A DNA stretch of 64,000 nucleotides from contig CP016211.1 of NCBI GenBank assembly GCA_001931535.1, positions 4,439,573 through 4,503,572 of the forward strand. The letters run 5' to 3'. Source of the DNA: Minicystis rosea. GTDB taxonomy: Bacteria; Myxococcota_A; Polyangia; Polyangiales; Polyangiaceae. Shown here piece after piece: positions 47,784 through 54,660 of the stretch. The notes under the pieces were generated by a model that worked only from the letters and a program-made list of their open reading frames with translations, was not told the DNA's origin and searched no databases. Within the stretch, counting starts at the first letter, position 1; each line of letters starts with the position of its first letter. The position numbers and the translations under genes are program-made.

Positions 47784-48350
47784 TCAAGCGGGAGTGATCG
47801 CATCTCCGGTCATGAAGTAGGCCCCACCGGCGACGTGATGAATGGTGCGCCATTCGTCGCTCGGAAATCGCCAGCGGCCGTCGACCCAACAAGCATCCTC
47901 GGCCCAGGCGGCCACCACTTCGGCGACGAAGAGGTCATATCGCTCCTGCACGCCGGGCTCGGCGAGGACACGACACTCGAGCCACGCGACACAACCCTCG
48001 ACGAGCGGAGCGGCCACCCGGGATGCGGGCGCGGTGGCGATGCCATGGGCGGCGATCTTGTCGACGTCGCGACCGCTCTCGCTGCCCACGGCGGTGGTGA
48101 GCGCGGCGAGGCGGCGCGGAGGCACGTTGATCACGAATTGGCCCGAAGCGTCGACGAGCCGGCGCGTGAACGTGTCGGCGGCGAGGACGGCGACGAGCTT
48201 CGGAGGATCGAAGTCGAGGGGCATCACCCAAGCCGCGGCCATGACGTTGGCGCGACCATCGTGTGCTGCGGACACGATGGTGGTGGGGCCGTGGTTGAGG
48301 AGGCGATAGGATCGCACGAGATCGACGGGGACGCGCATCGCGCCCAGCAT
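47784..48350 (-). CDS. Flavin reductase-like (FMN-binding split-barrel) protein
   Basis: The internal ATG gives MLGAMRVPVDLVRSYRLLNHGPTTIVSAAHDGRANVMAAAWVMPLDFDPP, a flavin-reductase-like domain signature. Confidence 0.7.
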   Translation of the reverse strand: MLGAMRVPVDLVRSYRLLNHGPTTIVSAAHDGRANVMAAAWVMPLDFDPPKLVAVLAADTFTRRLVDASGQFVINVPPRRLAALTTAVGSESGRDVDKIAAHGIATAPASRVAAPLVEGCVAWLECRVLAEPGVQERYDLFVAEVVAAWAEDACWVDGRWRFPSDEWRTIHHVAGGAYFMTGDAITPA

Positions 48351-48601
48351 AGCGCGACGACCACGACGAACATCGGTGCTTCGCGTCAGCGGCGGAAGGG
48401 TAGGCCTTCGATATCCAGTGTGGTTGACGAATCCTGCCCCCGTGGCAAGCCACGGAGAGCATGGGGGTCGCACATCACTTCCTCGCTACGTCGGACACGC
48501 TCTTGGCGCGGACCGCGCGGCGTCTCCACCGGAATGCCACTTCGTTCACGCTGCCCGCGCCGCGCATCATCGCCCTCCCCACGCGGTGGACGTTCGTGGC
48601 G

Positions 48602-49216
48602 ATGCGTGAGATCTATCACTTGAGCAAGCGATTGCTCGTCAGCGAGCCGATCTTCAAATCGTATTGCAAGCAGGTCGGCGCGCGGGTGCGGACGGGGCCC
48701 TACGTCCATTACGTCATCGGCGAAGGAGACATCTACCTCGGGGACGACGTGGTGCTCGATGGGCTGAGCGTCTTCAGCTTCGCGGCGCGCTTCTCCGAGG
48801 CCCCCACGCTGCGCGTGGGCAACCGCACGGGGATTGGGCACCAATGCCAGCTCACCATCGGCAAAGCCATCACCATCGGCAACGATTGTCGAATTGGACC
48901 GCGGGTGTGGATGTTCGATTCGAGCGGGCATGCGACCGATCCCGATGCGCGCATCGGCGGCGTCCCGCCGGCCGCGGATCAAGTCCGGCCCATCACGATT
49001 GGCAACAACGTCTGGGTCGGCGGCGGGTCGATCATAGGCCCAGGTGTCTCCATCGGCGACGGCGCCGTCGTTTCCGCGGGCGCGGTGGTGCTCGCCAACG
49101 TTCCACCGCGCACCGTGGTGGCCGGCAATCCGGCGCGAATGGTCGGGCTCACGAGCTCGTTCCGATCGGGCGCGCCGACCGCCTCCGATCCGCCGCCGCC
49201 TCTGCGTGACACCTGA
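48602..49216 (+). CDS. Hexapeptide-repeat (LbH) acetyltransferase (maltose/galactoside O-acetyltransferase-like)
   Basis: It has [LIV]G-x4 hexapeptide repeats (IGNDCRIGPRVWM, ITIGNNVWVGGGSIIGPGVSIGDGAVV) and an NPAR motif. It is 204 aa from the internal ATG; the listed ORF starts at 48461. Confidence 0.75.
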   Translation: MREIYHLSKRLLVSEPIFKSYCKQVGARVRTGPYVHYVIGEGDIYLGDDVVLDGLSVFSFAARFSEAPTLRVGNRTGIGHQCQLTIGKAITIGNDCRIGPRVWMFDSSGHATDPDARIGGVPPAADQVRPITIGNNVWVGGGSIIGPGVSIGDGAVVSAGAVVLANVPPRTVVAGNPARMVGLTSSFRSGAPTASDPPPPLRDT

Positions 49217-49394
49217 TCGCGACTCCCACCCTCCCCTCATGGCTCGTGTGCATCGACGAGCCGCCGTCACGAGCATGGCCGTCGCCGACTCCGATGCTCG
49301 TCAAAGGCCTCTGCAACGCCACAAAAAAGCGCCCCGTCCACGGGCAATTCCCGTGAACGGGGCAGCAGGATGGGATTCGATCGATATCGAGTCT

Positions 49395-50615
49395 TCAGGT
49401 GGTGAGGCGCAGGCGGACGGCGGCGGCGACGGCATCGGGCCAGTCGGCGTCGTCGAGGCCGTGGCGGGCGAGGAAGCCGAGGGTCAAGCGCTCGAGGCCG
49501 AAGGCGGTGCAGCCGGAGAGCGCGGGGCCCTCCGCGCGCTTGATGTCGAAGGCGCGGCCGAAGAAGTCTTCGTGCGCGTTGATGGACGCGACGGCCAGCG
49601 TCTCGCCGGCGCCGAGCGGGACACGCAGCTCGAATTTGCGATCGTGGGCGAGCTGGGCGTAGCGCTTCTCGGCGAAGACGTCGGCGAAGAAAGGATCGGA
49701 GGCCGTCTCGCAGGCGCCGCCGAGATCGAGATCGACGGCCAGCGCTTCGAGGGCGCGGGCGGCACGCTCGGCCGCGGAGCGCACGTAGGCGGCGTCGCCG
49801 GCATAGACGATCTCGCGCATCTGGAAGCACCAGAGTCGGGAGAGATCACGCATGTTGTGGCGTGCTTCGTAGCGGTAACAAGTGCCGCGCGCGGTGACGA
49901 TGGATCCCGCGGTGGCGTCGGCGCCGGCGAGCTCGTGGAAGCGGTGGTAACAGACGGCGGGCGGGAGACACTCGGCGGGCGCGTCGGGCCGGCATTCCTC
50001 GGGGAGGACGAAGCGCGGCGCGCGTGCGTTGGCGTCGCGGAAGCGCTCGATGACGGCGCTCCGCTGCGGGAGGTGGGTGACGAAGCTGACGCTCTGGGGA
50101 AACGAGGCGAGGTAGCCGGCGCGATGAAGCGCGTCGGCCGCGATGAGCGCGGGGAACGCGCGCTCGGGCGCTTGCATCGCGTCGTGCGCGAGGCGGCGGA
50201 GGCGGGCGTCGAGCGTCTCGAGGAGCGCGACGAAGCGCGCGCCGAAAGCATAGGCGCCCGCGCCTTGGCGGCGCGTCCAACCGGCCTCGACGAGGCGGGT
50301 CGTGAGCGCCTCGCCGCCGCGGGCGATCGGCGAGAGCGGGGCCTCGCGCGTGAAGATGCGTTTGATGGGCAAGGGCCGATATCCCTGGCGGAGACGCCCG
50401 AGCAGCGCGCCGAACTCGCGCTCGACGGCGGAGGCCACGCCGTCGCCGGCGCGCGGGTCGAGCACGATCTCGAAGAATGCCGACGTGGGGCGGCGAACCG
50501 CGGTGATGTCGGGGCTCAGGAAATAGGCGAGCTTGCCGGCGACGTCGGCGAGCTCGGCGCCGAGATCGCCGGCGCCGACGCGGAGCGTCCGCGGAGTGGT
50601 GTCGTCGTGGCTCAC
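49395..50615 (-). CDS. Amino acid--[carrier protein] ligase (truncated seryl-tRNA-synthetase-like class II aaRS homologue lacking the tRNA-binding arm)
   Basis: It has a class II catalytic core with a SerRS-like motif 2 (TARGTCYRYEARH) and motif 3 region (GAGETLAVASI...ERLTLGFLARHG). It is about 406 aa with no N-terminal coiled-coil arm. A carrier-protein gene lies directly upstream with an ATGA overlap. Confidence 0.7.
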   Translation of the reverse strand: MSHDDTTPRTLRVGAGDLGAELADVAGKLAYFLSPDITAVRRPTSAFFEIVLDPRAGDGVASAVEREFGALLGRLRQGYRPLPIKRIFTREAPLSPIARGGEALTTRLVEAGWTRRQGAGAYAFGARFVALLETLDARLRRLAHDAMQAPERAFPALIAADALHRAGYLASFPQSVSFVTHLPQRSAVIERFRDANARAPRFVLPEECRPDAPAECLPPAVCYHRFHELAGADATAGSIVTARGTCYRYEARHNMRDLSRLWCFQMREIVYAGDAAYVRSAAERAARALEALAVDLDLGGACETASDPFFADVFAEKRYAQLAHDRKFELRVPLGAGETLAVASINAHEDFFGRAFDIKRAEGPALSGCTAFGLERLTLGFLARHGLDDADWPDAVAAAVRLRLTT

Positions 50616-50851
50616 TGGGCAGCTCCGATGAGGTCGGTGAGCTCGTGAATCGTCCCCGATTGGATGAAGCGGCGATCGTCGAGCGAGACGGCGAACTCCG
50701 ACTCCAAGGCCACGAGCAAGTTGAGGACGTGGACCGACTCGATCCCGAGATCGCGATAGAGGTGCGCCCCGGGGGCGTATGGCGGGTCGACGCGCGCGAA
50801 GCGGGCGACGACCTGGCTGACGGCGTTGCTGAGACCCTGCGATGGCATCAT
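50612..50851 (-). CDS. Small carrier protein (ACP/PCP-like, phosphopantetheine attachment site)
   Basis: The internal ATGATG start gives a 79-aa protein with a LYRDLGIESVHVLNLLVALE (DLGxxS) 4'-Ppant Ser motif. Its stop overlaps the ligase start, and its start overlaps the GNAT gene stop. Confidence 0.65.
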   Translation of the reverse strand: MMPSQGLSNAVSQVVARFARVDPPYAPGAHLYRDLGIESVHVLNLLVALESEFAVSLDDRRFIQSGTIHELTDLIGAAQ

Positions 50852-51447
50852 GGATGCGCCTCCTCCGTGTCGTAGTCGAAGCAAGGAGTCACGGTGTCGT
50901 CGGCGAAGAGCGCTTTGAGCGCCACGCCGCCTGGACGCACCGAAATCTTCCACAGCGGAATGAGCGACACTCCGATTCGCGAGAGCGTGCGCCGCCCGCC
51001 TTCCAACTGATGATCGACGAAGTAGCTGACCTCCCAGCCGGCGCCCAGGCGGCGGAGGATGCGCAGCTCTTCGGCGAAGACGGCGCGACGAATGCCGCGG
51101 CCACGGAGCTCCGGATCGGTCCAGGCGTCGTATCCATAGCCGATCCCTAAGGCCAGACGGAAAGGTCGATCCGGCAAATGGTGGAGCGTGAAGACGCCGC
51201 CGCGGCGGAGCCAAGTACAGGACACGATGCGATCACCGATCTCGCCGACGACGAAGATCTCCCCGGCGAGGAGCCGTTCGCGGAGGCGATCACGGCGGCC
51301 GGGGGGATCGATCTCGGCGGGCAGGCGCGCGAGATCGGCCTCGTCGCCGGTGCGCACGCGCACGCCTTCGGCGTCGGGGCTGGGGGCGAGATCCGGAATC
51401 CGCGTGGAGCACTTGCACACGTATGCCACGCGCGAAAACGCCATCAT
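50848..51447 (-). CDS. GNAT-fold acyltransferase (candidate aminoacyl-transferase) coupled to carrier protein and aa:CP ligase
   Basis: It has GNAT motif A (LRGRGIRRAVFAEELRILRRLGAGW). It is the first gene of a three-gene minus-strand cassette with consecutive 4-nt overlaps. Confidence 0.55.
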   Translation of the reverse strand: MMAFSRVAYVCKCSTRIPDLAPSPDAEGVRVRTGDEADLARLPAEIDPPGRRDRLRERLLAGEIFVVGEIGDRIVSCTWLRRGGVFTLHHLPDRPFRLALGIGYGYDAWTDPELRGRGIRRAVFAEELRILRRLGAGWEVSYFVDHQLEGGRRTLSRIGVSLIPLWKISVRPGGVALKALFADDTVTPCFDYDTEEAHP

Positions 51448-51750
51448 GGGTCATCCTCCTCCCGAGGATTCGCGTCGAGCGACGCCTGGATTGTTCATCC
51501 AATTGGAGAAAGCGCCAGCTCCGGGTGAGCCCGGCAAGTATCGAATCGTAAGGCGATGCCCGGAACACCGCCTCGCAACTCGATTGCTGCGCGGACACGC
51601 ATGGATACGAGGGCTCGCCGACTTGCGCATCCGCTGGTATGGTCGGCCCATCGCGGGCGACGGGGGTCGGCGCGAAGACGAGCGCGGCGCGGCGCAATCG
51701 GTCCCTGACGAAGGGGACCGGCTCTGCCCCATGCGGATCAGGAGGCCTCG

Positions 51751-52503
51751 ATGGATGGTTCCGAACCGGGACGAGCGCTGGATCGGCGGCGGACGCTGGT
51801 CGTGCAGATGATGCAGAGTCAGGCGTACCGAGAGCTCGCGGCCGCGCAGATGTTCGGTCACGGGCTCCGGCTCGTGCCCCGGCTGGAATGGCTCAAGTTC
51901 ATGACTTGGCACATCCGCGAGGAGATGGATCATTACGAGCTGGTGGCGCGGGCATACCGCGATCTCACCGGCGAGAGCGTGGAGCCGTTCGTCAACGCGC
52001 GGCTCGCGGACAAGCCCGTTCCTTTCGCCGAGAGCTGGTACGAGCTCGCCATGGCCCAGTTCCTCTACGACCGCGGCGGTTATTGGCAGCTCCGCGAATA
52101 CGAGGGTTGCTCCTTCGATCCTTATCGCACGATGGTCGGACGCATCGTCCGCGAGGAGCGCGGGCACCAGGCGTTCGGCGAGCGGATCGTGGTGGAACTC
52201 ACCCGCTCCGGCGAGCACGAGGCGGAGAAACAAGCGCTCTTCGAGCGCTGGCTCCGGCAAGGCCTGCTCTCCTTCGGCCGGCCCGGCAGCGAGGCTTCGC
52301 GCGAGGCCGTGGCGCTCGGGCTCAAGAAGCGTGATCCCGGGCTCGTGATGCAGGACTTCCTCGACGACATCAAGCCGGCGGTGAAGGCCTGCGGGCTCGC
52401 GTTCCCGCCGCTCGATCGGATCGGGATCAGCGAGCCTCCCGGCGGCCTCGATCTCGCGCTCGACGGCGTGGACGAGACGCGCGCCCAGGGCTACCGGGGC
52501 TGA
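51751..52503 (+). CDS. Ferritin-like di-iron carboxylate protein (PaaA/PaaC / phenylacetyl-CoA-epoxidase-subunit-like)
   Basis: There are two E-x-x-H di-iron ligand motifs (REEMDHYE and REERGHQA), with upstream Glu residues on predicted helices. It is divergent from the GNAT/CP/ligase cassette. Confidence 0.6.
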   Translation: MDGSEPGRALDRRRTLVVQMMQSQAYRELAAAQMFGHGLRLVPRLEWLKFMTWHIREEMDHYELVARAYRDLTGESVEPFVNARLADKPVPFAESWYELAMAQFLYDRGGYWQLREYEGCSFDPYRTMVGRIVREERGHQAFGERIVVELTRSGEHEAEKQALFERWLRQGLLSFGRPGSEASREAVALGLKKRDPGLVMQDFLDDIKPAVKACGLAFPPLDRIGISEPPGGLDLALDGVDETRAQGYRG

Positions 52504-52641
52504 CGATGTCACCGAGAAGGCTGCCGCGCGCCGCTTTCTCCGTCCATCGCACGCGCGAGGCCGCCTCGTCCGGGGCGTTCGCTCGAAGGGCGCGGGAGGG
52601 GCGCGAACGGCGCGCCGTCCGTGCTAAGAGACCGGCTATCC

Positions 52642-54660
52642 ATGGGCAGCCGGTTCTACGTCACCACCCCGATCTACTACATCAACGACGTCCCTCACCT
52701 GGGGAGCGCGTACACCACGATCGCCGCCGACGTGCTCGCGCGCTACCACCGGCTGCGCGGTGACGAGACCCGCTTCCTCACGGGGACGGACGAGCACGGC
52801 CTCAAGATCCAACGCGCGGCGGCCGAGCGCGGCGTGCCGCCGCAGGCCTTCGCCGACGACATCTCCAGCAAGTTCCGCGAGACGTGGCCGAAGCTCGACT
52901 GCGCCTTCGACGACTTCATCCGCACCACCGAGCCGCGCCACAAGGGCGCCGTCCAGGACCTGTGGCGGACCATCCGCGACACGAAGAACAAGCCCGAGCC
53001 CAACATCTACCTTGGGCACTACGAGGGGCTCTACTGCGTCTCGTGCGAGGCCTACTACACCGAGAAGGACCTCGAGCAGCCGGGCAACATCTGCCCGCAG
53101 CACAAGAAGCCGGTCGAGATGCTCAAGGAGGAGAGCTATTTCTTCCGCCTCTCCGCCTACGCCGACGAGCTCCTCGCTTACTACGAGAGCCACCCGGATT
53201 TCGTGCAGCCGCCCGGCCGCTTCAACGAGGTGAAGAGCTTCGTGCAGGCGGGTTTGCAGGATCTCTCGATCTCCCGCACCACGTTCCAGTGGGGGATCCC
53301 CGTGCCCGACGATCCGCGGCACGTGATGTTCGTGTGGTTCGACGCGCTCACCAATTATCGGAGCGCGCTGCTCAAGCCGGAGAACAGAGAGCACCTCTGG
53401 CCGAGCGCCGTGCACCTCGTGGGCAAGGACATCCTCCGCTTCCACGCGGTGTATTGGCCGGCGTTCCTCCTGGCTGCGGGGCTGCCGCTGCCGAAGCACG
53501 TCTTCGCGCACGGGTTCCTCACGTACAACGGGCTCAAGATGTCGAAGACGCTGCGCAACACGGTGAGCCCCGTGGCGCTCGCGCAGGCGCTCTCGCCGAA
53601 GTTCGGCACCGACGTGGTCCGTTATTGCCTGATGCGCGCCATCTCCTTCGGGCAGGATGGTGACTTCAGCATTCATGACGTGCTCCAGCGGTATTCGTCG
53701 GAGCTCGCCAACACGCTGGGGAACCTGCTCAATCGCGTGCTGCCCTTCGCGCGCGAGGGGCTCCCGCGCGGCGAAGCGGGCGAGCTGGAGAAGGGTTTGA
53801 TGGATGCCTATCCGGTCGCCGCAAAGGCCGTGTCGGAGGCCTTCGACGAGCTCGACCCGACGCGGGCGCTCAACGCGCTCTGGGGTCTGCTCGGGAAGGC
53901 CAACGAGTACATCGACAAGGCGGCGCCGTGGGCGGCGAAGAAGAAGGGCGACACGGTGCGGCTCGGCGCCATCGTGGCTACGCTCCTCGACGTGCTCGAG
54001 GCCGTGAGCGTCCTCGTCGCGCCGGTGCTGCCGACGGTGGCCAACGAGATGCGGCGTCAGCTCGGTCTCGTGCCCCTCGATTGGGAGGCGCTCGCGAAGG
54101 AGCCGAAGGCGTTCTGGCCGCTCGCGTTGCCCACGCGTCCCGACGGGATCGCAGTGGTCGCTGCCTCGGAGAGCGCGCCCATCTTCCCGAAGTTCGAGAA
54201 GGAGCGCGAGGCGGAGATCATCAAGGAGTTCACGCCTTCGGTGCCCGCGCCGGAGCCGGCCGCGGAGCCGCAGAAGCCGGCGGCCGAAGCGAAGAAGGCC
54301 GAGGCCGCGCCCGCGCCGCGCGAGGCGAAGGGGACGATCACCTTCGACGATTTCGGGAAGCTCGACATCCGCATCGGGCTCATCACGTCGGCCGAGCGCG
54401 TGAAGAAGAAGGACAAGCTCCTCGATCTGCGCGTCGACACCGGCGACGCGGCCCCGCGGCGCATCGTGGCCGGCATCGCCAGCGCGTACGCGCCGGAGGC
54501 GCTCGTCGGCAAGCGCGTGGCCGTGCTCTGCAATCTGGCGCCCCGCGATTTCGGCAAGGGGCTCGTGTCGGAGGGGATGATCCTCGCCGCGGAGGATGGG
54601 AACGGCCTCGCGGTGCTCACTCCGGACCGCGAAAAAGTGCCCGGCTCGCCGGTGCAATGA
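52642..54660 (+). CDS. metG: Methionine--tRNA ligase with C-terminal tRNA-binding (EMAP/Trbp111-like) domain
   Basis: It has a HIGH-type motif (PHLGSAYT), a KMSKS motif (KMSKT), Zn-knuckle cysteines (CVSCEAYY...CPQH) and a C-terminal ...DIRIGLITSAERVKKKDKLLDLRVDTGD tRNA-binding domain. Confidence 0.9.
   Translation: MGSRFYVTTPIYYINDVPHLGSAYTTIAADVLARYHRLRGDETRFLTGTDEHGLKIQRAAAERGVPPQAFADDISSKFRETWPKLDCAFDDFIRTTEPRHKGAVQDLWRTIRDTKNKPEPNIYLGHYEGLYCVSCEAYYTEKDLEQPGNICPQHKKPVEMLKEESYFFRLSAYADELLAYYESHPDFVQPPGRFNEVKSFVQAGLQDLSISRTTFQWGIPVPDDPRHVMFVWFDALTNYRSALLKPENREHLWPSAVHLVGKDILRFHAVYWPAFLLAAGLPLPKHVFAHGFLTYNGLKMSKTLRNTVSPVALAQALSPKFGTDVVRYCLMRAISFGQDGDFSIHDVLQRYSSELANTLGNLLNRVLPFAREGLPRGEAGELEKGLMDAYPVAAKAVSEAFDELDPTRALNALWGLLGKANEYIDKAAPWAAKKKGDTVRLGAIVATLLDVLEAVSVLVAPVLPTVANEMRRQLGLVPLDWEALAKEPKAFWPLALPTRPDGIAVVAASESAPIFPKFEKEREAEIIKEFTPSVPAPEPAAEPQKPAAEAKKAEAAPAPREAKGTITFDDFGKLDIRIGLITSAERVKKKDKLLDLRVDTGDAAPRRIVAGIASAYAPEALVGKRVAVLCNLAPRDFGKGLVSEGMILAAEDGNGLAVLTPDREKVPGSPVQ

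What the first reader, a model, noticed from the sequence alone, without database searches (positions are those of the whole stretch)
49395..52503. Translationally coupled GNAT - carrier protein - aa:carrier-protein ligase cassette next to a di-iron oxygenase
On the minus strand, three genes overlap by 4 nt at each junction. They are a GNAT-fold protein (50848..51447), a 79-aa carrier protein with a DLGIES phosphopantetheine site (50612..50851), and a seryl-tRNA-synthetase-like enzyme lacking the tRNA-binding arm (49395..50615). The last corresponds to the poorly understood amino-acid:[carrier-protein] ligases. GNAT folds are what Fem, MprF and L/F-transferases use to move aminoacyl groups from aa-tRNA. 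A GNAT partnered with an aminoacyl-carrier-protein donor would be a tRNA-independent aminoacyl-transfer pathway whose acceptor is unknown. A ferritin-like di-iron enzyme (two EXXH motifs) is divergently transcribed and could modify the tethered amino acid.
Basis: partly seen in the sequence, partly recalled or inferred. Interest (0 to 1): 0.65.

Follow-up and report, generated by a model that had tools for sequence, protein, structure and literature searches.

The report
tRNA-free amino-acid carrier-protein transfer cassette
A myxobacterial operon couples a tRNA-synthetase-derived enzyme that probably loads an amino acid onto a small carrier protein with two acyltransferases, and the same gene set in other phyla sits in sugar-polymer gene clusters, which gives a testable role to an enzyme family whose purpose has been unknown since 2010.

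Summary
On the minus strand, a 199-aa GNAT-fold protein, a 79-aa carrier protein (CP) and a 406-aa SerRS-like ligase overlap by 4 nt at each junction (ATGA, GTGA). Each has a Shine-Dalgarno site, and a strong terminator follows the ligase. The ligase is a sister clade of the characterised amino-acid:[carrier-protein] ligases. It keeps the Cys/Glu/Cys zinc site but scores below the equivalog cut-off and has an extra ~95-aa N-terminal domain.

It is the hexapeptide-repeat (LβH) acyltransferase at 48461-49216(+), not the di-iron protein. Close relatives carry GNAT-CP-ligase-LβH as one operon. The di-iron PaaA-like gene accompanies the cassette only in the window and one Minicystis genome.

In other phyla, CP, ligase and LβH travel with a different, N-myristoyltransferase-like double GNAT, often inside glycan biosynthesis clusters.

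Most likely reading: a tRNA-independent route that puts a small amino acid, possibly N-acylated, onto a cell-envelope glycan or similar acceptor. Which transferase uses the loaded CP, which amino acid and which acceptor remain inferred. I rate it a new variant of a known kind, interest about 0.6.

The parts
49395..50615 (-). Amino-acid:[carrier-protein] ligase homologue, 406 aa, GTG start. It has a class II aaRS core related to methanogen-type SerRS (residues ~105-400) and a ~95-aa N-terminal domain predicted as beta-alpha-beta-beta-alpha-beta.
   Evidence: NF005479 E 1e-44 (152.7 bits, below the 357-bit cut-off). PDB Bll0957 E 2e-28. Zinc ligand positions C222/E250/C369 and motif 2/3 arginines R248/R376 are invariant in 40 homologues. 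AF2 pLDDT 89.4. Foldseek top hits are M. barkeri SerRS and Bll0957.
50612..50851 (-). 79-aa carrier protein with phosphopantetheine attachment Ser39 (DLGIES), net charge -4.
   Evidence: PF00550 E 4e-9. The Ser is conserved in 84/84 ligase-adjacent CPs. 4-nt overlaps on both sides.
50848..51447 (-). 199-aa single-domain GNAT-fold acyltransferase of a rare, divergent family (alignment A1), with motif A LRGRGIRR at residue 114.
48461..49216 (+). 251-aa hexapeptide-repeat (LβH) acyltransferase of the maltose/galactoside O-acetyltransferase clade, with a conserved ~90-aa N-terminal extension. It is convergent with the ligase and is the conserved fourth component.
   Evidence: PF00132 E 3e-12. PDB maltose O-acetyltransferase E 6e-22, with His157 (SSGH) aligned to TATH. 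Orthologues lie next to CP+ligase in Planctomycetota, Acidobacteriota, Armatimonadota, Gemmatimonadota and Myxococcota (E 1e-75 to 1e-108).
49330..49364 (-). Intrinsic terminator-like hairpin (15-bp stem, T-run) 31 nt after the ligase stop codon. It closes the GNAT-CP-ligase operon.
   Evidence: sequence.
51448..51750 (.). 303-bp divergent intergenic region upstream of the GNAT-CP-ligase operon and of the PaaA-like gene. No riboswitch was detected.
51751..52503 (+). 250-aa ferritin-like di-iron protein (PaaA/PaaC family) with ExxH at residues 58 and 136. It is a lineage-specific neighbour and its membership in the pathway is doubtful.
   Evidence: PF05138 E 1.6e-14. PDB 4mud E 1e-8. Beside the cassette only in the window and L001.

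Best explanation
The locus encodes a four-protein, tRNA-independent amino-acid activation and transfer module. The SerRS-derived ligase adenylates a small amino acid. By analogy with characterised relatives this is glycine, alanine or serine, but it was not determined here. The ligase then thioesterifies the amino acid onto the phosphopantetheine arm of the co-translated 79-aa carrier protein. Two acyltransferases with pantetheine-binding folds process the tethered residue: the GNAT encoded just upstream and the MAT/GAT-type LβH enzyme encoded convergently. The most economical scheme is that one of them moves the aminoacyl group from the carrier protein to a hydroxyl or amine of an acceptor. 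I favour the LβH enzyme for this step because it is the most widely conserved partner. The other would then acylate the alpha-amino group, either on the carrier or after transfer. I favour the GNAT for this, by analogy with MshD after MshC in mycothiol synthesis. The acceptor is most likely a cell-envelope glycan or its precursor, because the same module sits inside polysaccharide clusters in other lineages. Shown here: gene structure, family assignments, the conserved catalytic and zinc residues, the Ppant serine, and the co-occurrence pattern. Inferred: carrier loading, the amino acid, the roles of the two transferases, and the acceptor. The di-iron PaaA-like protein is probably not part of the core pathway.
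For: Ligase/CP pair. Translational coupling and terminator. Four-gene co-directional operon GNAT-CP-ligase-LβH with overlaps of 4 to 14 nt at every junction in the closest related clade (67-68% identical ligases; L087, L096-L098). Among 80 species-representative loci, a CP lies within 1.5 kb in 69. Of the 31 loci outside Chloroflexota and Actinomycetota, 25 have an LβH within 3 kb and 26 have a GNAT of either type. A different ~330-aa double GNAT lies directly downstream of the ligase in 23 loci and never occurs together with the window-type GNAT, which suggests analogous roles. That family (A4) matches Pfam Acetyltransf_1 and N-myristoyltransferase at E 7e-7. Glycan contexts: Wzx flippase, polysaccharide deacetylases and a FemAB-like GNAT; Wzt ABC transporter, glycosyltransferases, sulfo- and methyltransferases, UDP-GlcNAc 2-epimerase and PMT_2 in Paludisphaera; GT2/GT4; Wzx divergent from the GNAT in Myxococcales; NeuB-type nonulosonic-acid synthase in 31 loci, all but one from Chloroflexota. 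The GNAT-like family also occurs without the ligase inside a UDP-glucose dehydrogenase/epimerase/glycosyltransferase cluster. The closest structural neighbours of the GNAT are amino-sugar N-acetyltransferases and MshD. The LβH keeps the catalytic His of sugar O-acetyltransferases.
Against: No glycan-biosynthesis gene lies within about 10 kb of the cassette in the window or in Minicystis. The neighbours are HisRS, a TonB-like protein, an SDR, a glyoxalase, a flavin reductase, MetRS and a WGR protein. The close-relative clade uses a different LβH subtype from the window. Some loci have CP+ligase+GNAT without an LβH (Bryobacterales), and others have CP+ligase+LβH without a recognised GNAT. Either enzyme could therefore be the one that uses the loaded carrier. 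No biochemical activity, amino-acid specificity or product is known for this clade. The ligase scores well below the NCBIfam equivalog cut-off and has an unexplained N-terminal domain.
Confidence: 0.5

Rival explanations
1. The GNAT is the aminoacyl transferase, working like Fem/MprF but using aminoacyl-S-CP instead of aminoacyl-tRNA. The LβH is only an accessory O-acetyltransferase. The di-iron enzyme hydroxylates or oxidises the tethered amino acid.
Against: The GNAT is a single domain, whereas Fem/MprF-type enzymes have two. Its nearest structural neighbours are acetyl-CoA-dependent N-acetyltransferases. The di-iron gene is absent from all related loci except Minicystis. The GNAT family also occurs without any ligase or CP nearby.
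Confidence: 0.25
2. A small-molecule pathway. The amino acid is tailored while on the carrier (N-acylation by the GNAT, oxidation by the di-iron enzyme) and then released or transferred by the LβH enzyme. The product would be an N-acyl amino acid, a lipoamino acid or another secondary metabolite, not a glycan decoration.
For: In this window the cassette is an isolated island without glycan genes. Actinobacterial relatives place an acyl-CoA-dehydrogenase between the CP and ligase in a natural-product-like cluster with carbamoyltransferase, PhyH and methyltransferases. The partner GNAT in other phyla resembles N-myristoyltransferase, which acylates glycine amines with fatty acyl-CoA.
Against: There are no condensation, thioesterase or PKS/NRPS genes nearby. 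Glycan genes recur around the module in four or more phyla.
Confidence: 0.2
3. The ligase is a true SerRS paralogue that charges a tRNA, using the N-terminal domain as a tRNA-binding module. Its adjacency to the carrier protein would then be incidental.
For: A conserved ~95-aa N-terminal domain exists, and Foldseek aligns the full length to M. barkeri SerRS, though with rmsd 13 A.
Against: A CP gene with an invariant Ppant Ser is adjacent in 69 of 80 loci, usually overlapping the ligase start. The N-domain has median net charge 0 and no sequence similarity to any solved structure, SerRS included. The best sequence model is the aa:ACP ligase, not SerRS. No tRNA gene search of the cassette was run; Rfam found no RNA family at gathering score between 48000 and 53000.
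Confidence: 0.03

Closest known systems
Amino acid:[carrier protein] ligases Bll0957, Bll6282 (Bradyrhizobium) and Atu2573 (Agrobacterium); Mocibob et al. 2010 and 2013; PDB 3MEY, 4H2S
   Same: Class II aaRS core derived from methanogen-type SerRS, a Cys/Glu/Cys zinc site, and an adjacent small carrier protein with a Ppant serine. The biological role of the family was still described as unknown in a 2022 review (PMC9437257).
   Different: About 28% identity. 152.7 bits against the 357-bit equivalog cut-off. About 90 aa longer because of a conserved N-terminal domain predicted as beta-alpha-beta-beta-alpha-beta. Conserved partnership with LβH and GNAT acyltransferases, which is not described for the characterised enzymes in the literature I could search.
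DltABCD (D-alanylation of teichoic acids) and AlmEFG (glycine addition to Vibrio cholerae lipid A)
   Same: The same logic: an adenylate-forming ligase loads an amino acid on a dedicated carrier protein, and a transferase moves it onto an envelope polymer (described in PMC12930378).
   Different: The ligase there is an ANL-superfamily adenylation enzyme, here an aaRS-derived class II core. The transferases there are an MBOAT (DltB) or LpxL-type (AlmG) membrane enzyme, here soluble LβH and GNAT proteins. The acceptor here is unknown.
MshC/MshD of mycothiol biosynthesis
   Different: MshC transfers directly from the adenylate without a carrier protein. MshD is a tandem GNAT. No LβH enzyme is involved.
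Fem/MprF/L,F-transferases (aminoacyl-tRNA-dependent GNAT-fold transferases)
   Different: They use aminoacyl-tRNA and have duplicated GNAT domains. The window protein is a single domain with a canonical CoA/pantetheine-binding motif A and sits closer to N-acetyltransferases.
epsilon-Poly-L-lysine synthetase (Pls/PosA family) C-terminal domains
   Same: Hexapeptide/acetyltransferase-related domains that take an aminoacyl group from a carrier-protein thioester (established knowledge). The NCBIfam model TIGR02353 is weakly hit by the LβH proteins, E 5e-8 to 1e-10.
   Different: Pls is a membrane-embedded multidomain NRPS that makes a homopolymer. Here the LβH is a small free-standing protein closest to maltose O-acetyltransferase.

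Membership tests
Amino acid:[carrier protein] ligase (NCBIfam NF005479; Bll0957 type) | Class II aaRS catalytic core homologous to methanogen-type SerRS | tested here: met
   NF005479 E 1e-44. SerRS models NF002120 and TIGR00415 E 7e-30 and 7e-22. PDB Bll0957 E 2e-28. Foldseek prob 1.0 to 2cj9 and 4h2s.
Amino acid:[carrier protein] ligase (NCBIfam NF005479; Bll0957 type) | Zinc-binding Cys/Glu/Cys triad and motif 2/3 arginines | tested here: met
   C222, E250, C369, R248 and R376 are invariant in 40 homologues and align with the AACY / FRRE / GCVAFG segments of Bll0957. The identity of these residues as zinc ligands comes from my recollection of the Bll0957 structure papers.
Amino acid:[carrier protein] ligase (NCBIfam NF005479; Bll0957 type) | Curated equivalog score (357 bits) | tested here: not met
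   152.7 bits. This makes it a sister clade, not an equivalog.
Amino acid:[carrier protein] ligase (NCBIfam NF005479; Bll0957 type) | No tRNA-binding N-terminal domain | tested here: inconclusive
   There is no coiled-coil arm. A conserved ~95-aa compact N-domain is present instead. It has median net charge 0 and no PDB sequence match. I could not fold or search the domain on its own.
Amino acid:[carrier protein] ligase (NCBIfam NF005479; Bll0957 type) | Adjacent cognate carrier protein | tested here: met
   4-nt overlap in the window. A CP lies within 1.5 kb in 69/80 species-representative loci.
Amino acid:[carrier protein] ligase (NCBIfam NF005479; Bll0957 type) | ATP-dependent aminoacylation of the Ppant thiol and no tRNA charging | not testable with these tools
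   Needs enzyme assays.
Carrier protein (PF00550 PP-binding) | Pfam score above gathering threshold and a conserved Ppant serine | tested here: met
   37.1 bits against 20.8. Ser conserved in 84/84.
GNAT superfamily | GNAT fold with motif A (R/Q-x-x-G-x-G/A) pyrophosphate/pantetheine loop | tested here: met
GNAT superfamily | Match to a curated Pfam/NCBIfam GNAT model | tested here: not met
   No family at E<=0.1. This is a divergent, rare family.
Fem/MprF-type aminoacyl transferases | Tandem GNAT domains; aminoacyl-tRNA donor | tested here: not met
   Single 199-aa domain. FemX and MprF rank below N-acetyltransferases. Donor not testable.
LβH sugar O-acetyltransferases (MAT/GAT/WcaF clade) | Hexapeptide repeats and catalytic His | tested here: met
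   PF00132 46.1 bits against 27. His157 aligns with the His of the TATHP motif of maltose O-acetyltransferase. That this His is catalytic is from memory.
LβH sugar O-acetyltransferases (MAT/GAT/WcaF clade) | Equivalog score for any named enzyme | tested here: not met
   Best is 79.9 bits against 314 for maltose O-acetyltransferase. The conserved ~90-aa N-terminal extension is absent from those enzymes.
PaaA/PaaC ferritin-like di-iron oxygenases | Pfam PF05138 match and two ExxH motifs | tested here: met
   54.2 bits against 28.5. ExxH at residues 58 and 136.
PaaA/PaaC ferritin-like di-iron oxygenases | PaaA equivalog score and PaaB/C/D/E partners nearby | tested here: not met
   TIGR02156 42.8 bits against 280. 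No Paa partners among the neighbours. The only candidate is a flavin reductase in the window, which is absent in Minicystis.
Dlt / Alm aminoacyl-carrier systems | ANL-type adenylation enzyme plus MBOAT or LpxL-type transferase | tested here: not met
   The ligase has a class II aaRS fold, and the transferases are LβH and GNAT. The system works like Dlt/Alm but is not a member.

The most novel reading that the evidence does not exclude
SerRS-derived ligase plus carrier protein, feeding LβH and GNAT (or N-myristoyltransferase-like) transferases, would be a widespread third route for aminoacylating cell-surface glycans. It is present in at least 551 species-level genomes of ten or more phyla. It would stand alongside the A-domain-based Dlt/Alm systems and the aminoacyl-tRNA-based Fem/MprF systems. 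The Chloroflexota branch would supply the N-aminoacyl groups of nonulosonic acids. This would finally assign a biological function to the aa:CP ligase family.
Probability: 0.4. Interest if true: 0.75.

Novelty: new variant of a known kind. Interest (0 to 1): 0.6.

Why it matters
Amino-acid:[carrier-protein] ligases were discovered in 2010 as a link between ribosomal and non-ribosomal amino-acid activation. A 2022 review still describes their biological role as unknown (PMC9437257). This locus and its relatives define a larger, unannotated sister clade. Sources label its members 'seryl-tRNA synthetase' or 'hypothetical'. The clade has a fixed set of partner enzymes and recurrent glycan-cluster contexts. 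That turns the open question into concrete experiments: load the carrier, add each transferase, and look for aminoacylated sugars. If confirmed, it would explain how some bacteria attach amino acids to surface polysaccharides without tRNA or NRPS-type adenylation enzymes. It would also correct the annotation of at least several hundred genes.

Tried and rejected
1. Riboswitch or other RNA clue to the amino acid. An Rfam E-value scan of 48000-53000 gave only sub-threshold chance hits.
2. Metagenome scan with the window ligase. It returned only two short fragments.
3. afdb50 fold search. The library was unavailable.
4. Profile of the ligase N-domain against PDB sequences. Nothing better than E 0.6.
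5. hhalign of the window GNAT family (A1) against the NMT-like GNAT family (A4). Only motif A aligns, probability 1.6%, so I treat the two as analogous, not orthologous.
6. Greedy ORF calling and all-vs-all clustering of neighbours. This was noisy in high-GC loci because of antisense ORFs. I used it only to pick candidates that Pfam then confirmed.
7. Literature searches for a described function or for this gene set. Nothing relevant came up in the held library. Mocibob 2010 (PMC2930448) is not held, so statements about it rest on memory and on the 2022 review.
8. A flavin reductase as reductase partner of the di-iron protein. I rejected it as a conserved feature because it is absent in Minicystis.
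9. Amino-acid specificity. I did not attempt a prediction because I could not recall or retrieve validated specificity determinants.
Full report
**1. What is in the sequence**

The window is about 69% GC. Its closest relative with a long contig is a Minicystis sp. genome of the Polyangiales.

On the minus strand lie three genes:
- a 199-aa ORF at 50848-51447,
- a 79-aa ORF at 50612-50851,
- a 406-aa ORF at 49395-50615.

The junctions are CC[ATGA]TG and CA[GTGA]GC, so each pair overlaps by exactly 4 nt. Each start is preceded by a GGAG-type Shine-Dalgarno site. GC3 is 0.79-0.90 for all genes.

A 15-bp-stem hairpin with a T-run lies 31 nt after the ligase stop, at 49364-49330 on the minus strand. 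The three genes therefore form a compact, translationally coupled operon.

**2. The ligase**

- Its best curated model is NF005479, 'amino acid--[acyl-carrier-protein] ligase' (E 1e-44, 152.7 bits). This is ahead of the methanogen-type SerRS models but far below the 357-bit equivalog cut-off.
- Its best solved relatives are Bll0957 glycine:[carrier protein] ligase (E 2e-28) and then archaeal SerRS.
- An AlphaFold model (pLDDT 89.4) matches M. barkeri SerRS and Bll0957 at probability 1.0.
- In an alignment of 40 homologues, C222, E250 and C369 are invariant, as are R248 and R376. C222, E250 and C369 align with the zinc-ligand positions of Bll0957. R248 and R376 are the motif 2 and motif 3 arginines.
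- Residues 1 to about 95 form a conserved extra domain, predicted as beta-alpha-beta-beta-alpha-beta, with K28 and R80 nearly invariant. The 318-residue Bll0957 type lacks this domain.
- The extra domain has no sequence match in the PDB and a median net charge of 0. It is not the SerRS coiled-coil arm. Its function is unexplained.

**3. The carrier protein**

It matches PF00550 at 37.1 bits against a cut-off of 20.8. Ser39 of DLGIES is conserved in all 84 ligase-adjacent carrier proteins I collected.

**4. The GNAT**

- No Pfam, NCBIfam or PDB sequence model detects it.
- A model built on 41 homologues has pLDDT 90.8.
- The family keeps a motif-A-like loop, LRGxGLRR.
- It is a rare family. Only 29 representatives reach E<=1e-10 among 1.84 billion. 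More remote profile hits are ordinary Acetyltransf_1 proteins.

**5. The overlooked fourth gene**

A 251-aa hexapeptide-repeat protein is encoded at 48461-49216(+), convergent with the ligase.
- It is closest to maltose and galactoside O-acetyltransferases (E 6e-22). His157 aligns with the His of their TATHP motif.
- It carries a conserved ~90-aa N-terminal extension.
- Its orthologues lie next to CP+ligase in Paludisphaera (E 5e-108), Acidobacteriota (E 2e-106), Armatimonadota, Gemmatimonadota and Myxococcota.

**6. Neighbourhood conservation**

Minicystis has the same five-gene layout as the window.

The next clade has ligases 67-68% identical to the window's. It carries GNAT -> CP -> ligase -> LβH on one strand, with overlaps of 4 to 14 nt at every junction. 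It has no PaaA-like gene; succinate dehydrogenase lies upstream and NIF3 downstream. The LβH in that clade is a different subtype from the window's.

A scan of one genome per species found at least 551 loci that encode this ligase clade. For the 80 loci kept, the counts are as follows:

| Feature near the ligase | Loci |
|---|---|
| CP within 1.5 kb | 69 of 80 |
| LβH within 3 kb | 25 of 80 |
| Those 25, as a share of the loci outside Chloroflexota and Actinomycetota | 25 of 31 |
| Window-type GNAT | 3 of 80, Myxococcota only |
| Different ~330-aa double GNAT directly downstream of the ligase | 23 of 80 |
| PaaA-like protein | 0 of 80 |

The ~330-aa family matches Pfam Acetyltransf_1, and its profile hits N-myristoyltransferases at E 7e-7. 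The two GNAT families share only motif A and never co-occur. This suggests analogous roles.

The window-type GNAT lies within 8 kb of a ligase in 10 of 11 distinct loci. The exception sits in a UDP-glucose dehydrogenase/epimerase/glycosyltransferase cluster.

**7. What the module is for**

The window itself gives no clue to the acceptor. Its flanks are HisRS, a TonB-like protein, an SDR, a glyoxalase, a flavin reductase, MetRS and a WGR protein.

In other lineages the module is embedded in glycan biosynthesis clusters:
- Wzx flippase, two polysaccharide deacetylases and a FemAB-like GNAT.
- Wzt ABC transporter, glycosyltransferases, sulfotransferase, methyltransferases, UDP-GlcNAc 2-epimerase and PMT_2.
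- GT2 and GT4 glycosyltransferases.
- Wzx divergent from the GNAT in Myxococcales.
- In 31 loci, all but one from Chloroflexota, a NeuB-type nonulosonic-acid synthase, methyltransferases and DUF4910.

An actinobacterial relative instead has CP, acyl-CoA dehydrogenase and ligase in a natural-product-like cluster. The ligase+CP pair therefore appears to be a general loader with lineage-specific downstream enzymes.

**8. Mechanism**

I commit to the following scheme:
1. The ligase loads a small amino acid on the CP.
2. The LβH enzyme transfers the aminoacyl group to a hydroxyl or amine of a glycan or glycan precursor.
3. The GNAT acylates the alpha-amine, either on the carrier or after transfer.

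The logic parallels three known systems:
- DltA/DltC and AlmE/AlmF/AlmG (PMC12930378).
- MshC/MshD of mycothiol synthesis (established knowledge).
- LβH-related domains that accept aminoacyl-S-carrier donors in epsilon-poly-lysine synthetase (established knowledge; weak TIGR02353 hits).

Loci with only one of the two partners exist in both directions. I give the committed scheme about 0.5, the swapped scheme 0.25, a small-molecule pathway 0.2, and a true tRNA synthetase 0.03.

**9. The di-iron protein**

It is a genuine PaaA/PaaC-family ferritin-like protein with two ExxH motifs. It accompanies the cassette only in the window and in Minicystis. In both genomes it points towards MetRS. Shared ancestry of two related genomes explains this as well as function does. 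I do not count it as part of the module.

**10. Novelty**

The enzyme family is known, but its role is not (PMC9437257). This clade has three features that I did not find described in the held literature:
- the extra N-terminal domain,
- the conserved LβH and GNAT partners,
- the glycan-cluster contexts.

The key primary papers are not in that library, so my check was limited. I rate the finding a new variant of a known kind, with interest 0.6. It makes a question that has been open since 2010 directly testable.

Noticed in passing
L091:11173-12129; L025:10927-11931; L054:6263-7258 and 20 further loci (alignment A4): A ~320-340-aa bacterial double-GNAT family sits directly downstream of the ligase in Acidobacteriota, Zixibacteria, Armatimonadota, Gemmatimonadota, Krumholzibacteriota and 'Proteobacteria' MAGs. 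Its profile hits eukaryotic N-myristoyltransferase N-domains (E 7e-7), and no NCBIfam model covers it. An NMT-like enzyme coupled to a loader that may carry glycine is intriguing.
   Followed up: partly
L024-L085, the 44 loci grouped as Chloroflexota plus one uncultured bacterium (e.g. L046:4937-6841, L077:9418-9702, L062:12976-13605): In this group the CP+ligase pair has no LβH or GNAT detectable with my models. It is accompanied instead by a NeuB-family synthase fused to an AP_endonuc_2 (xylose-isomerase-like) domain, a methyltransferase and a DUF4910/HTH protein. This suggests nonulosonic-acid decoration.
   Followed up: partly
L090:8523-11242 (Kitasatospora): The actinobacterial relative has CP -> acyl-CoA dehydrogenase -> ligase, flanked by carbamoyltransferase, PHP, PhyH, SDR, GT2 and methyltransferases. 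This looks like on-carrier oxidation of the tethered amino acid in a secondary-metabolite cluster.
   Followed up: no
L013-L016, L019, L023, L086 ('Proteobacteria' MAGs): The ligase, NMT-like GNAT and LβH are present, but no carrier-protein ORF is detectable within 1.5 kb (0 of 7), even with an HMM run without filters. The carrier may be encoded elsewhere or be too divergent.
   Followed up: partly
L092:13675-15130; L093:11743-13198: Myxococcales loci carry two tandem paralogues of the core-type LβH acyltransferase downstream of CP+ligase. The window-type GNAT lies 2.6-4.5 kb away, divergent from a Wzx-like flippase. A conserved set of S66 peptidase, PlsC acyltransferase and epimerase lies next to it.
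   Followed up: no
window:49395-50615, residues 1-95 of the product: The conserved N-terminal domain of the ligase clade, predicted as beta-alpha-beta-beta-alpha-beta with K28 and R80 nearly invariant, has no detectable relative and no assigned role. It is present whatever the downstream partner enzymes are.
   Followed up: partly
window:39930-41528: A HisRS gene whose product (532 aa) has the HisRS domain starting only at residue 113, which implies an N-terminal extension of about 110 aa if the called start is right. MetRS lies at 52621-54660, so two housekeeping aaRS genes flank the aaRS-derived cassette within 12 kb.
   Followed up: no
window:47784-48473: A flavin-reductase-domain gene lies back-to-back with the LβH gene, with the longest ORFs overlapping by 13 nt. 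It is absent at this position in Minicystis, so it is probably not part of the cassette. It is the only candidate electron donor for the di-iron protein nearby.
   Followed up: partly
window:43849-45846: A 665-aa protein with a long Pro/Ala/Lys/Glu-rich low-complexity centre and a weak TonB C-terminal domain match.
   Followed up: no
window:56026-58755: A 909-aa protein with a central WGR domain and no other recognised domain.
   Followed up: no
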